Counted from the stretch's first letter, positions 9,401-25,900 are shown. The stretch: DNA of 64,000 nt from a virus (IMGVR_UViG_3300024256_000001:1-64000), one strand, 5' to 3'. The notes: generated by a model from the sequence alone, not told the origin. Numbers and translations: made by a program.

Positions 9401-10009
9401 CCCGCGCTCTTCCATCTCGTCTTCAATCTGCTCGCGGGTCTTGCGTCCCCTCCTGGGCTCGGGCTCGGGCTCGGGCTCGGGCTCGGGCGCGGGCGCGGGC
9501 GCGGGCGCGGGCGCGGGCGCGGGCGCGGGCTCAGCCAGCTGCGCAAGGTGCTCATCCCACAGCGCGTCAACGTCCACGTCGTCAGGCTCGACCACGGGGG
9601 CCGCAGGCTGTTGCGTCGGTGCCGTCTGCTCGTGCTGTAGCACCAGCGTGTCACGCGGGCGCGCGGGCGCTGGTGCGGGCGCTGGTGCGGGCTTGTGCGG
9701 CTTGCTGGTCGGTGCCGCAGGCTGGGGCTTGGCTACAGGCTTCGCCGCCTCCTGGGGCTTGCTGGGGGCACGCGGCTTGCTGACGGCGCTGGGGTTGCCG
9801 AACAGGCTCAGTTGCTCGCGCGGGCGCGATGGCTCGGGCTTGTGGGCGGGGGTCTTGCGCTCGGCCGGGCGGTGGCTCAGCAGGTCGAGCTGGTGCCCTG
9901 TCGTCTTGGGATACCAGTAGTTGCCGTGCCCGTCCGTCCAGCCGCCTTTGCGGCTGCGCTTGGCTGGGCGGTATCCCACGGGCGGCTTGTCGGATTTGAT
10001 GAGACGCAC
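6416..10009 (-). CDS. SNF2-family helicase with a long N-terminal extension
   Basis: 1197 aa. Motif I MEMGLGKTL, motif II ADEVHSFKN, motif III MTGTPKPN and motif VI QATGRVWRQGQ lie in the C-terminal about 650 aa. The N-terminus carries KPPVGYRPAKRSRKGGWTDGHGNYWYP, QLDLL, QLSLF and a PA/PE repeat linker. TAGTG overlap with the upstream gene. Confidence 0.8.
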   Translation of the reverse strand: MRLIKSDKPPVGYRPAKRSRKGGWTDGHGNYWYPKTTGHQLDLLSHRPAERKTPAHKPEPSRPREQLSLFGNPSAVSKPRAPSKPQEAAKPVAKPQPAAPTSKPHKPAPAPAPAPARPRDTLVLQHEQTAPTQQPAAPVVEPDDVDVDALWDEHLAQLAEPAPAPAPAPAPAPAPEPEPEPEPEPRRGRKTREQIEDEMEERGLVQHVAKDSNGRMVTRWVTGDTRAMMVREGIDSWEEKPPEERDAQGGGRIEGDGRYREARAREREEAEARRKAAQELDDARQAFAYGYETPPGALLPKDVGEQTEYSLWIKARGVWRIWPGGMVKGGTIRRGWMGVLGLAGGAEAHACIMPADARPDADKIGRLVEVKEFKTSPHRPPNFLGLIADKFPATKVRDGRFENYVPVSGHPDAFLKQIGFHDVLKGDGWAGRIGIFYDSMHRGRGWHELRGRQQEFFTRVNRDLTSWWSDLLPEERERFWDEYCDDSRQTTFARVTVAEHENADFPIPDGMEKMRDLRAPYVDPITGSQWADEAQTIPWEKREPGQGKPWDFHTFQKKAINFAADHAPRALWAMEMGLGKTLAAFGLYHELRNRGTVDKALVLAPKSAHGSWEDHGELVSDARVVSLDGKGKPQRLKAYAAFEAGEIDVLVGTPDSMAAKPAKIKDKAALDRLEARAIKLGGEIEGLHSPEQRDSKGRLLRPERAIHKKGDRWVWSDDGRAVGDDSFKGLKCVDPTCDQVVLERIMQAQGSRILRVADEVHSFKNPEAARTQGFVKVVTEPDGPVVGMTGTPKPNGIRDFYHVIDNIAPGSMGTTWEDFADAHTYRHLSKKGGVTHWEDGSARPETMGDLYQKTSHVMFARTMNDPDVDVDLPTRVDLAPRVGESDFQAQIRDRFAHWCEIKWRIRSGIRSFVGGQMQITPDTQAETELERAYSGELGEVDRLSASGAHTNAQVMLLRAAQLAISPALLDPDGTWGAANPEYESPKVAALADAYVEHMSQQPETGGIIFSTYNAAWVDEMRRALKRRGFDGEVPHYHGGLGKTRRRELQRGLNSGKFKLLLANAHALSTGANLQERANFVGWANTPWEPDKLTQATGRVWRQGQTERVKVLRPVGSPVDLIVQAKVANKIREGSMLVGATTAADAAISQTMFKPGMTTAEMAAAALGVDPGFFGREKGADNFVVRELLSEDGEDTAS
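9455..9532. repeat. tandem hexanucleotide repeat inside the SNF2 gene
   Basis: (GGGCTC)5 (GGGCGC)7 GGGCTC, encoding (PE)n(PA)n on the minus strand. Confidence 0.9.
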
Positions 10010-22986: not shown

Positions 22987-25900
22987 TCAGTGCTTGAACA
23001 TGATCCGCAGCTTACCGGCGATGTAGCTGTGTTTGTAGCCGGGCAGCTTCTCGTGGTCCGTCGCCACGTCGATATCAGTGTGGGTCAGCCCCAGCATGCG
23101 CGACACCGGGCGCTGCAACACCTCATGGATGCTCAGCTCCCCCATGCGACTACCCTGATCATGCGCTGCATCGGCCAAGGCGAAGTGCGCCGCGTCCCGC
23201 CTGTTGTCCTGGGTCGCAATGCGCCCGTGCTTGGCCAATCCCACCCGCTCCAGAGCCTTGTAGCCACGGGTCTTCTGGATCGCCTTGCGGCTGGCCTCTT
23301 TCTCTTCGCTCTCCAGCGGGTCATTGCCAAGCGCGTGCAGATCAGCAGCGGCTTTCATAGCCGCCGGGCTGTGCTTTGCCGCCAGCCACTTGGGCGCAGT
23401 GTGCTGAGCGATGCCGGCCGGCGCGGAGTCGAAGAACGACTTTAGCGCAGGGCTACGCCCGATGTGCGCCGCCACATGCTCGTGACCAGCCTCCCACTCG
23501 TCGGGGCTCTTGTGGTCAAAACTGGTGTCGCCGTGCGCCACCTTGCTGAAGGCTGTGGTGGACGGGTGCTTCGCCAGCCGCTTCGCCTTCGCAGCTGCTT
23601 GCTGCTCATGGTAGCTGGCTCGCTCATCGACTGCCGCAGTCAGCGCATCGCGCCCGCGCTTGGGCTTGTCGGGCTCGTGACCCTTGGGCTTGTCGGGCTC
23701 GGTGCCGTGCGTCTTGTTGTAGTGGGCCTGCCCGCCAGCCACGCCGCGCTTGTGGCCCTTGCCGGCCCCTGCAGCGCGCTGGCTCTCCTCTGCCGCGTCG
23801 TAGCCCTTCAGGCTGGCCTCGCTCATCTCCTCTCGCGGATACCCCAGGCCGTGCTGCTGCCAGCCGTGCGCGTAGTCGCGCCGGTCGGGGTTGGAGTCGG
23901 CCGTCAGCGCGGCTCTGTCGTCGGCCAGATTCTTGGCCCCCACAGCCATCAGGTCCGCCTGGGCCGGCTCGGCCGGCTGGGCCCGCCGCTGCTGCTCTAC
24001 CTTGGCCTCCGCTTTCCAAGACGGTTTGCCGTGCATGGTGCCACGCTCGCCGAAGTCCGCGCCGTGGCGGGCGATGAGCCCCAGCTGGTCGTCCGTCAGG
24101 TCGCGGAACATCGCCGACTTGGCCTCGGCGTCCGGCATGCCCAGGTTTTTGCGCGAAACCTTCATCTCGCCGCCACTGCTGAGCTTGACCCGCACGCTCA
24201 AGCGGCTGGCGCGGGTCACCGTCCCCTCCCCATACATGGTGTTGACCTTGGCCCCCACTTTGGCGTCCCGCGCCCCAAACTGCTTGTTGCTGCGGTGGCT
24301 GTTCCGCGCCGCTCGCCCTGCGTCGTGGATGGCCTGCACCCTGCCTCTGCTCTGGTGCTCTTTCACCACCTTGACGGCATCAGGGTGTAGGTCGGTCTTG
24401 CCCTGCTTGTGCGCCTCCAGCGCCGCCTTGTCGTATGCGTCCCGGGCCGCGCCATGCTTCTCAGACCTGCGGTGCCTGTCGGCGTCGTACTCGCGCAGGG
24501 CGCGCTTGCTCATGCGCGACCGCTGCAGGCCGCTGATCTCGCCAATGCCCGGCTGGGGTGCGTCCTCATTGGCAAGATGCTCATAGCGCCCCATCTGGTG
24601 CGTGGCCACGCTGGCCTGGGCCGCCTCGCGCAGCTTGCTGGGCGCGGTGTTGCGGGTGGCCTCCGCTGCCGCCGCGTTCGGGTCCTTGGTGCTGGCCGCC
24701 TTCAAAGCAGCCTCCACCTGGGGGGCCAGCTCATCGCGGCTCATATGGACGTTGTGGGTGTCGATGTAGTGCCCCACCATCTGCTTGAAGTAGGTCGGAT
24801 CGTCGTTGGCCATCTCCAAATGGTCGGCCGCGTATTCGCTCAGGTCGGCCACAGCGGCCTGAACCACAGCCGCCTTGCGCTGGTCTGTCGGGATCTCGCG
24901 CAGCCCCAGGCGCTTGGCCTCCGCTGTATCCAGAGGCCCGTTGTAGGTGACCGTGCCATGCTTGAAGTCGGGGTGGTCGCCCACCGACGAATAGCCGCTG
25001 GGCACCGACGCGAAGCTAACCGGCCGATCATGCGCGCCATAGACCACGCTCGTGATCGTGTGCGGCTCAGAGTCCCGCGCAGCGTCGGCCGCCTTCACCT
25101 TGTCCAGCTTGCTCGCTTCCCCAGCCGCCGCCCGCTTGCGGTCCCGGTCCACGCGGTCAGCCGTCTCGGTGGCCGCGCTGGCCTTGTCCGACGCCTCTGC
25201 GAAGGGCTTGTGTGACCCGATGCCCACGCGCCCACCGGCACGGTGGAGCTGGGCCGCGTCGTCATGCGCGCCCCGCGCGAGCTGGTGCGCCCGCATGTGG
25301 TGCGGGTCCTTCGCCGCCTTGGCCGCCGCCTCGTGCTTCTCGGCCTGGGCCGCGTGGTAGTCCAGGGCCTTGTGGTGCTCGCTGCGCTCTTGACGGTCGG
25401 CGTTCTCGCTCTTGTTGTCGGCTCGACCGCTGACCCCCCGGCCGTGCTGGATCGTGTCCACGGGGCCGCTGGGGTCCATCGCACCGCCACGATGGAACAC
25501 GGCCGCCGCCTCGTGATCGTCCCGCGCCATCGCGTGAAGCTGTCGGACCTCCACGCTCCGGTGCCGGTCGTCGGCCATGCTGGCGTGCTCCCGGCTCGCC
25601 TCGTGGTGCCGCTCCGCGTGCTTCATGTGCTCCGCGTGCAGGCTGTCCTGCTTGTGCGAGCCGCCGTGCTCACCGGCCCGCGCCACACCCTTGCCGGGGT
25701 ACCAGTACTGACCGTGGCCGTCGGTGAAGCCGCCCTTTTTGCTGCGGGGCGCGGGGTGGAAGCCTGCGGGCGGCTTGTCGGCCGCCTTGGCCTTGGCCCC
25801 GCCCAGGCGCTCCTGGGCCGCCGCCAGCCGCGCTTTGCTGCTAGCGTGCGCAGCCTGGACGCCAGCGTTTGCCGCCGCCTGCGTGGGCTTGGGCTTGGGG

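What the first reader, a model, noticed from the sequence alone, without database searches (positions are those of the whole stretch)
9908..25776. Shared 27-aa module KPPxG(Y/F)xPAxRSxKGG(W/F)TDGHGxYWYP near the N-termini of three >1000-aa proteins, 42 nt identical between two copies
KPPVGYRPAKRSRKGGWTDGHGNYWYP (9908-9988), KPPAGYHPAKRSRKGGWTDGHGHYWYP (17162-17242) and KPPAGFHPAPRSKKGGFTDGHGQYWYP (25696-25776) each sit within the first about 120 residues of otherwise unrelated giant proteins. Copies 1 and 2 share an exact 42-nt stretch (9923-9964 = 17177-17218). That implies recent intragenomic exchange or strong selection at the DNA level. A looser variant, GWTPYKGKGKRTGSPGHYQYDY, is at 20668-20733. 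I infer a common address label, such as a capsid-packaging or ejection signal, or a shared host target. The module is not a domain I can name.
Basis: partly seen in the sequence, partly recalled or inferred. Interest (0 to 1): 0.7.

Follow-up and report, generated by a model that had tools for sequence, protein, structure and literature searches.

The report
Shared mini-module in phage cargo proteins
Three otherwise unrelated giant proteins encoded among the head-assembly genes of an uncultivated ~78-kb phage carry the same 27-residue basic, glycine- and aromatic-rich mini-module; it belongs to an undescribed family of short motifs found in large multi-enzyme phage proteins of the type thought to be injected with the DNA, and is probably a common docking tag, though its function is untested.

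Summary
It lies on the minus strand. Three copies of KPPxG(Y/F)xPAxRSxKGG(W/F)TDGHGxYWYP sit at residues 8-34, 78-104 and 92-118 of a 1197-aa SNF2 helicase and two proteins of 1138 and 1020 aa. The 42-nt identity is exact.

A profile of the module finds exactly these three sites in the window. It finds only 39 protein clusters among 1.84 billion, 3 of them spurious. No Pfam family or solved structure covers it.

The general form is (K/R)PPxG(Y/F)xP(I/A)PxSxxGG(Y/W), a basic/Gly loop, then YWYP. It occurs 1-3 times per protein, at N-termini or between domains. The carriers are large proteins with polyvalent-type domains: ART-PolyVal, LPD1, InPase, ddrB-ParB, SAM lyase, topoisomerase IB. Their genes lay beside portal, terminase or MuF in the window and in all five other phage contigs with enough context.

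Three other large proteins of the same head block carry looser hairpin motifs (types B and C). N-terminal GQLxLFG motifs accompany four of the six.

The DNA identity is only modestly above what codon bias predicts, so it points to recent exchange rather than DNA-level selection.

Best reading (about 0.45): a shared docking tag that loads effector enzymes into the capsid, comparable to the T4 and P1 capsid-targeting sequences. This is untested. Host-hub docking (beta-clamp) and DNA binding remain open.

The parts
9908..9988 (-). Type A module, copy 1: KPPVGYRPAKRSRKGGWTDGHGNYWYP, residues 8-34 of the SNF2 helicase protein
17162..17242 (-). Type A module, copy 2: KPPAGYHPAKRSRKGGWTDGHGHYWYP, residues 78-104 of the 1138-aa protein immediately upstream of the portal gene
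25696..25776 (-). Type A module, copy 3: KPPAGFHPAPRSKKGGFTDGHGQYWYP, residues 92-118 of the 1020-aa protein upstream of the large terminase
20668..20733 (-). Type C hairpin motif GWTPYKGKGKRTGSPGHYQYDY near the N-terminus of the Mom-like (GNAT) protein. It is conserved in relatives, and in L001 it occupies the gene position where this window has type A.
5489..5542 (-). Type B hairpin motif HKYVRRVPKPGGGWRYYY in the ddrB-ParB protein (residues 235-252)
12127..12180 (-). Type B hairpin motif HKYLRRVPKPGGGWRYFY in the PAPS-reductase protein (residues 62-79). All 17 residues shared with the ParB copy use identical codons.
9797..9814 (-). QLSLFG motif in the SNF2 protein (residues 66-71). A QLDLLS variant lies at 9875-9892.
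17303..17404 (-). Two Q motifs of the 1138-aa protein: QMRLFG (17387-17404) and QLDLFG (17303-17320), N-terminal to the module
25954..25971 (-). QMSMFG motif of the 1020-aa protein (residues 27-32)
5606..5623 (-). QLGLFG motif of the ParB protein (residues 208-213), just upstream of leader FSAMLAKA and type B
6134..6193 (-). Type D motif GPFIGPKNGKWADAAHTIPW at the N-terminus of the ParB protein. The same motif recurs in polyvalent proteins P0029, P0037 and L021.
6416..10009 (-). Carrier gene 1: 1197-aa SNF2-family helicase
14057..17473 (-). Carrier gene 2: 1138-aa protein. Its C-terminal region matches phrog_19458/6744; its orthologue P0001 has a weak LPD29 hit.
22987..26049 (-). Carrier gene 3: 1020-aa protein with no known domain. 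It is identical to P0002, which was seen on 12 metagenomic contigs of up to 78 kb.
12357..14057 (-). Portal protein (context). Its C-terminal tail is strongly acidic (42 D/E in the last 90 aa) and contains DVDLDALFGG.
21159..22859 (-). Large terminase subunit (context)
996..2803 (-). MuF-like minor head protein (1658-2803) and head maturation protease (996-1661) (context)

Best explanation
The module is a strongly basic element of about 27-32 residues, rich in glycine and aromatic residues. It is set in disordered Pro/Lys/Ala/His-rich linkers. With a 47-sequence alignment, AlphaFold models it as a tiny three-stranded beta-meander.

It is one member of a family of short motifs that also includes types B, C and D and, often nearby, GQLxLFG. 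These motifs sit at the N-termini or between the domains of large effector enzymes that phages encode inside their head-assembly gene block. Such enzymes are called 'polyvalent' proteins.

In this ~78-kb uncultivated phage the effectors are six separate proteins rather than one fused polyprotein: SNF2 helicase, ddrB-type ParB, PAPS reductase, a Mom-like acetyltransferase and two proteins without a named catalytic domain. Each carries at least one such motif.

Most likely mechanism: the motif is a common docking tag. It would bind a shared, probably polyanionic, virion partner during procapsid assembly. Candidates are the very acidic C-terminal tail of the portal, MuF, the inner capsid surface, or the DNA itself. 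Unrelated enzymes would then be loaded into the head and ejected with the genome.

Shown: existence, conservation, rarity, distribution, gene context, basic charge, and flanks that are poorly conserved and low in sequence complexity.
Inferred: binding to a virion partner, packaging, ejection.
For: 1. Real and specific. There are three HMM hits in the window and nothing else, and 0 pattern matches are expected by chance.
2. Conserved as an island. Module identity between orthologues is 67-85%; the rest of the N-terminal region is 16-38% identical. The module is retained in P0001, L006, L015, L018 and L020 although the protein bodies differ.
3. Broader family. 39 clusters reach E<=1e-3 among 1.84e9 representatives. 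Three are spurious; the other 36 proteins hold 49 instances.
4. Carriers hold polyvalent-protein domains: ART-PolyVal, Topoisom_I, Rho_N, C5 DNA methylase, ddrB-ParB, LPD1 (3 proteins), S-AdoMet lyase (2), InPase and GNAT. The enzymology is unrelated, so the shared element must serve something these proteins have in common, such as delivery, rather than catalysis.
5. Gene context. In this window all six motif-bearing genes lie within 3017-26049, interleaved with terminase, portal, MuF and protease. None of the replication, methylase, ligase or tail genes carries the motif. In L021, L022/L023, L024, L025 and L027 the carrier lies beside portal, terminase or MuF. The neighbours in L028/L029 are DarB-like and ParB-like proteins.
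6. Types A and C occupy the same gene position in related genomes (window SNF2 versus L001). In P0031 both follow the same leader NF(S/T)DLVKAA.
7. The module is nearly absent from cellular genomes. The clade-specific core gave 0 hits in 185,579 species genomes. The general form gave one MAG scaffold, with phage-like content.
8. Precedent. The N-terminal 30 residues of P1 DarB are sufficient to target a reporter to the capsid, as is the T4 IPIII CTS (PMC9024508). DarA-Hdf bind the inner capsid and the DNA (PMC12810830). A polyvalent protein was detected in phi24B virions (bioRxiv 10.64898/2026.04.10.717836).
9. The portals of these phages have strongly acidic C-terminal tails. These are a plausible counter-charge for a module with net charge +4 to +8.
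Against: No experiment or interaction prediction was possible, so packaging is entirely inferred.

In relatives the module is often internal and present in 2-3 copies. That is unlike the single N-terminal T4 and P1 signals.

The order of GQLxLFG and the module varies between proteins, so there is no simple signal-plus-cleavage-site logic.

Late, head-module expression would also suit enzymes that modify DNA just before packaging; Mu Mom is an example (established knowledge).

Acidic portal tails are common in this portal family, so they are not specific evidence.

AlphaFold confidence for the module is only moderate: pLDDT 77-82 with the alignment and about 60 in the context of the protein.
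Confidence: 0.45

Rival explanations
1. Host-hub docking. The N-terminal header tethers the enzymes to a host replication hub after entry or during replication. GQL(S/D/G)LFG would bind the hydrophobic cleft of the host beta sliding clamp, and the basic hairpin would add DNA or second-site contacts. This would concentrate DNA-acting enzymes at phage replication forks, or block host clamp clients.
For: Strict Q[LM]x[LM]F occurs five times in the ~18.8k-aa proteome of the window. All five lie in the N-terminal regions (residues 24-213) of four motif-bearing proteins, and all are followed by G. Across the wider set there are 15 copies in 13 of 36 carrier proteins, against 0.1 expected, mostly within the first 70 residues.

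QLSLF and QLDLF equal the published clamp-binding consensus QL[SD]LF, and QLGLF is the E. coli Pol II C-terminal motif. Both statements are established knowledge recalled from memory, not tested here.

The part of the phage in this window has a family A polymerase and a primase-helicase but no clamp gene.
Against: The replication, repair and methyltransferase proteins of the same phage lack both motifs.

Carriers include enzymes with no obvious need for a clamp: metallopeptidase (HEWGH), SAM lyase, inorganic pyrophosphatase and ADP-ribosyltransferase.

The motif pair tracks head-module location, not DNA enzymology.

The host is unknown, so no clamp could be examined.
Confidence: 0.2
2. Nucleic-acid clamp. 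The basic, aromatic hairpin binds DNA directly. The enzymes would ride on, or be retained by, the phage genome inside the capsid or immediately after ejection. This parallels the DNA-binding 'header' domains proposed for polyvalent proteins.
For: The module has net charge +4 to +8 and an aromatic ladder (YWY), as seen in the general form GGYRKRVGGKWxYWYP. It occurs in several copies spread along long proteins. P1 DarA-Hdf contact DNA inside the head (PMC12810830). ArdC-N is proposed as a DNA-binding header in polyvalent proteins (PMC5512222).
Against: There is no similarity to any known DNA-binding fold or motif in Pfam or the PDB. The invariant Pro, Gly and Trp positions suggest a specific protein-protein fit rather than generic polyanion binding. 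DNA cannot carry proteins through the portal during packaging (established knowledge), so a separate loading step would still be needed.
Confidence: 0.15
3. Processing sites. The motifs, or the hxxhLKA leader or QLxLF|G next to them, mark sites where the prohead protease or a polyvalent-protein metallopeptidase cuts effectors apart or removes their leaders.
For: The motifs sit at domain boundaries in multidomain relatives. Zincin metallopeptidases occur in the same proteins (L006 1391-aa protein, the L019 protein, P0016) and are proposed to process polyvalent proteins; P1 DdrB is processed before packaging (PMC5512222). A protease gene lies in the same block.
Against: A cleavage site rarely needs 27 conserved residues with a predicted fold. 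The relative order of motifs differs between proteins. No cleavage data exist.
Confidence: 0.08
4. Recombination cassette only. The shared sequence matters at the DNA level, as a short homology patch that lets gene heads and bodies be shuffled, and the peptide has no function of its own.
For: There is 42 nt of exact identity between copies 1 and 2. The type B copies have 51 of 54 nt identical, with 17/17 identical codons (P = 1e-5). Copies within one genome share residues that differ between genomes: PAKRSRK in the window against PAPRSRK in L006, and GGGW against GGGY. Contig L017 joins two genotypes exactly inside the type B module.
Against: Most copy pairs have synonymous identity at the codon-bias expectation. 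The peptide is conserved across 36 clusters and very different codon usages while the DNA diverges. L017 may be an assembly chimera. Exchange is therefore better seen as a consequence of the repeats than as their purpose.
Confidence: 0.05

Closest known systems
Capsid targeting sequences of phage T4 internal proteins (IPIII CTS) and of phage P1 DarB (N-terminal 30 residues)
   Same: These are short N-terminal peptides that direct otherwise unrelated proteins, including anti-restriction proteins, into the procapsid for co-injection. The carriers are encoded with head genes. P1 DarB is a methylase-helicase and DdrB a ParB-type protein, the same enzyme classes seen here and in relatives (PMC9024508, PMC5512222).
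   Different: There is no sequence similarity. The P1 authors found no consensus among Dar protein N-termini (PMC9024508), whereas here three to six proteins share recognisable motifs. The present module also occurs internally and in several copies. Packaging is untested here.
Polyvalent proteins and their 'large polyvalent protein-associated domains' (LPD1-39), Iyer et al. 2017 (PMC5512222)
   Same: The domain repertoire is the same (ddrB-ParB, ART-PolyVal, LPD1, LPD29, InPase, SNF2/MTase, zincin peptidase) and so is the gene context next to portal, terminase or MuF. The module behaves like a further uncharacterised element associated with these proteins.
   Different: The module is much shorter than an LPD domain and is matched by no Pfam LPD model. 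Term searches of the paper turned up no description of it. In this window the effectors are mostly single-enzyme proteins that share the tag, not one fused polyprotein.
Bacterial beta-sliding-clamp binding motif QL[SD]LF (applies to the accompanying GQLxLFG motif, not to the module itself)
   Same: QLSLF and QLDLF match the consensus exactly, and the motif sits in N-terminal, linker-like sequence.
   Different: The match was recognised from memory and no clamp binding was tested. The motif is found on enzymes with no evident clamp-related role and is absent from the phage's own replication proteins.
Encapsulin cargo-loading peptides
   Same: These are short conserved peptides on flexible linkers that load diverse enzymes into an HK97-fold shell (established knowledge).
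   Different: The sequences differ. Encapsulin peptides are usually C-terminal and hydrophobic/Gly-rich, not basic and aromatic. No interaction with the capsid protein was tested.
WW domain, and beta-hairpin repeats such as choline-binding repeats
   Same: The module is about 30-35 residues and is predicted to form three short strands. It starts PPxG(Y/W) and ends W-x-P. A choline-binding repeat protein (P0023, FTDGNGTYWYFD) was picked up as a false positive.
   Different: Profile-profile comparison with WW domains aligns only 5 columns (probability 1.5%). There are no Pfam WW hits and no Foldseek hits.

Membership tests
Polyvalent proteins (Iyer et al. 2017) | Two or more unrelated effector or catalytic domains in one polypeptide | tested here: inconclusive
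   The window's type A carriers have one recognised catalytic domain (SNF2) or none. Relatives carrying the same module do meet the criterion: P0037 has ART-PolyVal + Topoisom_I + Rho_N, P0032 has a C5 methylase + ddrB-ParB, and the L019 protein has a metallopeptidase plus further domains.
Polyvalent proteins (Iyer et al. 2017) | Presence of family-diagnostic domains (ddrB-ParB, LPDs, ART-PolyVal, InPase, MuF-C/zincin peptidase) | tested here: met
   ddrB-ParB PF18763 in window ORF 3017-6244 (E 2e-20). Weak LPD29 in orthologue P0001. LPD1 (3 proteins), InPase and ART-PolyVal among module carriers.
Polyvalent proteins (Iyer et al. 2017), phage type | Encoded in a portal-terminase (head) gene neighbourhood | tested here: met
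   Window: carriers are interleaved with TerL, portal, MuF and protease. L021, L022/23, L024, L025 and L027 show the same arrangement.
Polyvalent proteins / virion-delivered effectors | Physically packaged in the capsid and ejected into the host | not testable with these tools
   This needs virion proteomics or reporter fusions. The only support is by analogy: P1 Dar and phi24B gp47 (PMC9024508; bioRxiv 10.64898/2026.04.10.717836).
Capsid targeting sequence (T4 IPIII / P1 DarB type) | Located at the extreme N-terminus of the cargo protein | tested here: inconclusive
   In the window the module starts at residues 8, 78 and 92. Among 49 instances in 36 carrier proteins many are internal, at residues 200-1400, and up to 3 occur per protein.
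Capsid targeting sequence (T4 IPIII / P1 DarB type) | Shared by several unrelated cargo proteins of one phage | tested here: met
   Three type A carriers plus three carriers of types B and C, otherwise unrelated.
Capsid targeting sequence (T4 IPIII / P1 DarB type) | Necessary and sufficient to bring a protein into the procapsid | not testable with these tools
   No experiment or complex prediction was available.
Beta-clamp binding motif (for the accompanying GQLxLFG) | Matches the QL[SD]LF / QLxLF consensus | tested here: met
   QLSLFG, QLDLFG, QLGLFG, QMRLFG and QMSMFG. Enrichment is 15 observed against 0.1 expected in carriers. The consensus itself was recalled from memory.
Beta-clamp binding motif (for the accompanying GQLxLFG) | Binds the hydrophobic cleft of the host beta-clamp | not testable with these tools
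   The host is unknown and there is no interaction tool.
Pfam Ntox37 (PF15535) | Score at or above Pfam's gathering threshold (27.8 bits) | tested here: not met
   17.5 bits (E 0.006) for the SNF2 N-terminus only. Four of 47 module instances hit, with best E 0.007.
WW domain | Sequence-profile similarity over the three-strand core | tested here: not met
No Pfam WW hit.
Any solved structure | Sequence or fold match in the PDB | tested here: not met
   The best sequence hits have E 0.09-1 over 13-22 residues. Foldseek gave 0 hits.

The most novel reading that the evidence does not exclude
These phages use a small set of interchangeable mini-motifs as a modular address code: type A, types B, C and D, and GQLxLFG, often after an hxxhLKA leader. 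The code would load any enzyme into the capsid. Separate effector genes could then replace one giant polyprotein, and new cargo could be recruited simply by recombining a roughly 40-80-nt tag onto it. If so, this would be the first shared, sequence-recognisable and portable capsid-targeting tag for virion-delivered anti-defence enzymes. The P1 authors looked for such a consensus among the Dar proteins and did not find one.
Probability: 0.3. Interest if true: 0.75.

Novelty: new variant of a known kind. Interest (0 to 1): 0.55.

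Why it matters
Polyvalent and Dar-type proteins are thought to be the first phage weapons to reach the host, because they are injected with the DNA. How such large and diverse enzymes are selected for packaging is known only for single proteins in T4 and P1, and no shared signal has been recognised.

A short motif that can be recognised from sequence, and that marks these proteins across uncultivated phages, would do three things. 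It would make candidate cargo predictable from metagenomes. It would give a concrete peptide to test for capsid loading, or alternatively for hijacking a host hub. And it could provide a portable tag for loading foreign proteins into phage heads.

The within-genome similarity of the copies also gives a small, clear example of how short shared modules drive mosaicism, and how they can cause mis-assembly of metagenomic phage contigs.

Tried and rejected
1. Plus-strand reading of the coordinates is meaningless.
2. Word-indexed protein searches with 45-column profiles (A2, A4) returned nothing even at E<=10, although P0001 has a near-identical module. That tool is insensitive to such short profiles, so these results were not used as evidence of rarity.
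3. Known-domain explanations:
   - Pfam shows only Ntox37, below threshold.
   - PDB sequence searches show only 13-22-residue chance-level matches: TNT-domain protein 8r15_A 'WTDEKGNYKYP' (E 1), mS33 and a beta-lactamase.
   - Foldseek against the PDB gave 0 hits.
4. The WW-domain idea came from the three-strand AlphaFold model and the PPxG(Y/W)...W-x-P pattern. hhalign gave probability 1.5%, so it was rejected at the sequence level.
5. Relatedness of type A to types B and C: hhalign aligns 17 columns (P 0.004, probability 8.5%). This is suggestive only. The grouping rests mainly on equal position and context.
6. DNA-level selection: the codon test shows at most a modest excess for two or three pairs.
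7. Cultured relatives: there is no nucleotide match in 50,697 phage records. The portal is only about 40% identical to SPO1-like portals. P0022 has no match, and P0033 matches only through its ParB domain.
8. L017 looked like a natural recombinant at the type B module. However, each half is 99.9-100% identical to a different co-occurring genotype, so an assembly chimera is at least as likely.
9. Acidic portal tails as a specific partner: the tails are acidic in all relatives examined, so this is only compatible with the model, not diagnostic.

Full report

The quoted coordinates are right, but the genes are on the minus strand. The plus-strand translations are meaningless. The minus-strand translations give KPPVGYRPAKRSRKGGWTDGHGNYWYP (9908-9988), KPPAGYHPAKRSRKGGWTDGHGHYWYP (17162-17242), KPPAGFHPAPRSKKGGFTDGHGQYWYP (25696-25776) and GWTPYKGKGKRTGSPGHYQYDY (20668-20733).

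The three strict copies lie at these positions:
- residues 8-34 of a 1197-aa SNF2 helicase (6416-10009);
- residues 78-104 of a 1138-aa protein (14057-17473);
- residues 92-118 of a 1020-aa protein with no known domain (22987-26049).

The 42-nt exact identity 9923-9964 = 17177-17218 is confirmed. A degenerate DNA pattern for the core has 3 matches against 0.00 expected. An HMM of the module scores exactly these three ORFs (E 1e-16 to 1e-18), and the next best hit has E 0.26. BLASTP similarity among the three proteins is limited to their N-terminal headers.

**2. What about the DNA identity?**

I tested synonymous identity against the window's own codon usage (68% GC, GC3 about 85%). Copies 1 and 2 share 17 of 22 degenerate codons where 11.4 are expected (P about 0.01). 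The 14-codon run has probability 8e-5, but that test was chosen after seeing the run. Pairs 1-3 and 2-3 are at expectation.

Shared minority codons recur in most copies, including those from other genomes: AAA for Lys14, GGG for Gly20 and ACG for Thr18. This indicates common descent of the copies at the DNA level.

Copies within one genome resemble each other at positions that differ between genomes. The window has PAKRSRK where L006 has PAPRSRK.

The second motif type shows the same behaviour more strongly. The two type B copies (5489-5542 and 12127-12180) use identical codons for all 17 shared residues (P 1e-5). Both read GGGW in the window, while both copies in L006 read GGGY.

I read this as occasional gene conversion or recent duplication. 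There is no sign of selection on the DNA itself.

**3. Where are we?**

The window is most of an uncultivated phage genome.
- The 1020-aa protein is identical to P0002, which was seen on 12 metagenomic contigs of up to 78 kb.
- There is no nucleotide match among 50,697 phage records.
- The portal is about 40% identical to SPO1-like portals.

Positions 996-26049 hold the following genes on the minus strand, in transcription order:
1. the 1020-aa protein
2. large terminase
3. a Mom-like acetyltransferase
4. small genes and a fibre-like protein
5. the 1138-aa protein
6. portal
7. PAPS reductase
8. SNF2 helicase
9. ddrB-type ParB protein
10. MuF-like protein
11. head protease

The rest of the window encodes a DNA methyltransferase, an RNA ligase, a D5-type primase-helicase, a PD-(D/E)XK nuclease, a DEAD helicase, a family A polymerase and baseplate proteins.

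**4. Companion motifs**

All six large enzymes in the head block carry a short Gly/aromatic motif:
- type A, three copies;
- type B, HKY(V/L)RRVPKPGGGWRY(Y/F)Y, in the ParB and PAPS reductase proteins;
- type C, in the Mom-like protein.

The ParB protein also starts with a type D motif, GPFIGPKNGKWADAAHTIPW.

Strict Q[LM]x[LM]F occurs only five times in the ~18.8k-aa proteome. All five lie in the N-terminal regions (residues 24-213) of four of these proteins, and all are followed by Gly. Neither the A7/A8 motif profiles nor strict QLxLF match any replication, ligase, methylase or tail protein.

**5. Relatives**

The 1138-aa protein has a single detectable homologue, P0001. Only the C-terminal 30% aligns, yet the N-terminus keeps GGQLGLFS...KPPKGYHPAPKSRKGGWTDGHGNYWYP.

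On its contig (L001) the PAPS reductase keeps type B. The next gene sits where the window has the type A SNF2 helicase, and it starts with type C followed by QLGLF.

An 80-kb IMG/VR contig (L006, L019) has:
- type A on a 1391-aa protein with a zincin metallopeptidase;
- a type A variant on its SNF2 helicase;
- type B on its PAPS reductase and ParB proteins;
- type C and QQQLSLFG inside a 1040-aa multidomain protein.

DNA-pattern scans for the clade-specific core (WTDGHGxYWY) gave:
- one viral contig;
- seven metagenome contigs, including Tara Oceans samples;
- no hit in 185,579 species genomes.

Between orthologues the module is 67-85% identical, while the surrounding N-terminal 200-370 residues are 16-38% identical.

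**6. The wider family**

An exhaustive HMMER search with a four-sequence profile against 1.84 billion representatives found 39 proteins at E<=1e-3. Three are spurious: one choline-binding repeat protein and two repetitive sequences.

The other 36 proteins contain 49 instances. Their general form is (K/R)PPxG(Y/F)xP(I/A/V)PxS(K/R)xGG(Y/W/F), then a basic/Gly loop of variable length, then (Y/W)WYP, usually followed by G or D. The TDGHG loop is the variant specific to this clade.

Copy number and position vary. Several proteins have two or three copies, and many copies are internal (P0012, P0014, P0021, P0022, P0025, P0027, P0031-33). The same proteins also carry type B (P0032, P0033, P0037), type C (P0031) and type D (P0029, P0037).

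In P0031, types A and C follow the same leader NF(S/T)DLVKAA. An hxxhLKA-like leader also precedes many other A, B, C and D copies and some QLxLFG copies.

Pfam finds these domains in the carriers: ART-PolyVal, topoisomerase IB, Rho_N, C5 methylase, ddrB-ParB, LPD1 (3 proteins), S-AdoMet lyase (2), InPase and GNAT. This is the repertoire of the 'polyvalent proteins' of Iyer et al. 2017. Term searches of that paper turned up no description of these short motifs (PMC5512222).

Gene context was recovered for five more phage contigs. In every one the carrier lies beside portal, terminase or MuF.

A looser DNA pattern for the general form found one true positive among the species genomes. It is a Planctomycetota MAG scaffold that also encodes DarB-like and ParB-like proteins, one of which reads AEQLSLFGRAKAPAGFSPIPGSKRGGYHKRHGAGYIYWYF.

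GQLxLFG is strongly enriched in the carriers: 15 copies in 13 of 36 proteins, against 0.1 expected.

**7. Structure**

Folded alone, the first 200 residues of the 1138-aa protein are mostly low-confidence coil and helices. The module region has pLDDT about 60.

With the 47-sequence alignment, the 40-residue module reaches pLDDT 77-82 over residues 11-30. It shows three short beta bridges, that is, a mini three-strand meander.

No known fold could be attached to it:
- Foldseek finds nothing in the PDB.
- PDB sequence searches give only chance-level short matches.
- A WW-domain resemblance is not supported by profile comparison (probability 1.5%).
- Ntox37 stays below Pfam's threshold.
- Type A aligns only weakly with types B and C over the hairpin GGY+++..G.W.YWYP ~ KY.RR.P.GGW.Y.Y (P 0.004, probability 8.5%).

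**8. What does it do?**

The element is attached to enzymes with unrelated chemistry: helicase, nuclease, peptidase, SAM lyase, pyrophosphatase, ADP-ribosyltransferase, topoisomerase and acetyltransferase. It tracks one shared property, which is being a large effector encoded within the head-assembly block. It is almost absent from cellular genomes.

The best-supported reading is therefore a common docking element that loads these proteins into the procapsid. The partner would be shared and probably polyanionic: the portal's acidic tail, MuF, the inner capsid surface or the DNA.

There is experimental precedent for such tags and for virion-borne effectors:
- The N-terminal 30 residues of P1 DarB, and the T4 IPIII CTS, suffice to target reporters to capsids. 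The P1 authors looked for a shared signal among the Dar proteins and found none (PMC9024508).
- DarA-Hdf line the inner capsid and touch the DNA (PMC12810830).
- A polyvalent protein was found in phi24B virions (bioRxiv 10.64898/2026.04.10.717836).

I give this reading about 0.45, because nothing here tests binding or packaging. In addition, internal multi-copy occurrence differs from the classical N-terminal signals.

The rivals are:
- Docking to a host hub (0.2). GQL(S/D/G)LFG matches the beta-clamp motif. Against it, the phage's own replication enzymes lack the motif and several carriers are not DNA enzymes.
- Direct DNA binding by the basic hairpin (0.15).
- Protease processing sites (0.08).
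- A purely DNA-level recombination patch (0.05). The peptide is conserved while the DNA diverges, which argues against this.

**9. Novelty and verdict**

The carriers belong to a known class, and the proposed role has known analogues in T4 and P1. The motif family itself is not in Pfam or the PDB, and I did not find it in the literature I could search. I rate it a new variant of a known kind, of moderate interest (0.55).

Interest would rise to about 0.75 if the motifs prove to be a portable, shared capsid-loading code (probability about 0.3).

Noticed in passing
window 5606-5623, 9797-9814, 17303-17320, 17387-17404, 25954-25971 (minus strand): GQLxLFG-type motifs (QLGLFG, QLSLFG, QLDLFG, QMRLFG, QMSMFG) occur only in the N-terminal regions of four motif-bearing proteins. 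They are strongly enriched in module carriers elsewhere (15 observed against 0.1 expected). They match the bacterial beta-clamp-binding consensus QL[SD]LF, which was recalled from memory.
   Followed up: partly
window 5489-5542 and 12127-12180 (minus strand): There are two copies of a second motif, HKY(V/L)RRVPKPGGGWRY(Y/F)Y, each followed by a small beta-rich region, in the ParB and PAPS-reductase proteins. 51 of 54 nt are identical and all 17 shared residues use the same codon (P 1e-5). Both copies read GGGW here and both read GGGY in the related contig L006, a pattern of concerted evolution.
   Followed up: partly
L017 6805-6855 (Ga0080013_1008865): This contig is 99.9% identical to genotype L001 up to the type B motif and 100% identical to genotype L006 after it. 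It therefore fuses a PAPS-reductase head to a ParB body. It is either a real recombinant at the shared motif or, at least as likely, an assembly chimera caused by the repeat.
   Followed up: partly
window 12357-12626 (portal C-terminus; DVDLDALFGG at 12471-12500): The portal ends in an extremely acidic tail (42 D/E in the last 90 residues). The tail contains DVDLDALFGG, reminiscent of the QLxLFG motif, and a final ..IKKAVVIEC resembling the hxxhLKA leader. Relatives also have acidic tails (19-44 D/E).
   Followed up: partly
window 6134-6193 and 8393-8431 (minus strand): A fourth motif, GPFIGPKNGKWADAAHTIPW, sits at the ParB N-terminus. A shorter form, GSQWADEAQTIPW, lies just before the SNF2 helicase core. 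The full form recurs, sometimes three times, in polyvalent proteins P0029 and P0037 and in a >3200-aa protein in L021.
   Followed up: partly
window 26017-26040, 6200-6223, 5567-5590, 12187-12210; MuF ORF 1658-2803: A short leader of the form hxxhLKA (FSTILRKA, LRDVIAKA, FSAMLAKA, FRTLLAKA, YGQILKA, MRLIKS) precedes the A, B, C and D motifs and QLxLFG here and in distant relatives. The MuF-like protein may itself start at ..VRDVLAKVV, which suggests its annotated GTG start is too far upstream.
   Followed up: no
L001 7767-7913 versus window 9875-10009: In L001 the gene immediately after the PAPS-reductase gene starts with the type C motif followed by QLGLF (MPRFSDLVKAWKPYHGKGKRTGTPGHYEYQYEQLGLF). 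The window's gene in that position (the SNF2 helicase) starts with type A. The motif types therefore appear interchangeable. The L001 gene is cut off after 49 codons by the contig end, so its identity is not known.
   Followed up: partly
window about 16950-17160 and 25400-25695 (minus strand), downstream of copies 2 and 3: His-rich, charged stretches follow the module (GGHHNAPDGHGVAHHEAHEIESD; GEHGGSHKQDSLHAEHMKHAERHHEASREH). They are conserved in orthologues P0001, P0004, P0005 and P0011. Their function is unknown; they might bind metal.
   Followed up: no
window 14057-14700 (C-terminus of the 1138-aa protein): The C-terminal region, with ..IRLHFDGKPDPAMIAKLKANGFKWSRSNSAWQR.., matches PHROG families annotated 'primase' (phrog_19458) and proteins in Clostridium, Faecalibacterium and Yersinia phages. 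A similar GF(R/K)W...W element closes P0017.
   Followed up: no
window 9400-9560 (SNF2 N-terminal linker) versus P0003: The near-identical metagenomic protein P0003 is 6 residues shorter, within the (PA)n/(PE)n repeat. The low-complexity linkers therefore change length between very close relatives.
   Followed up: no
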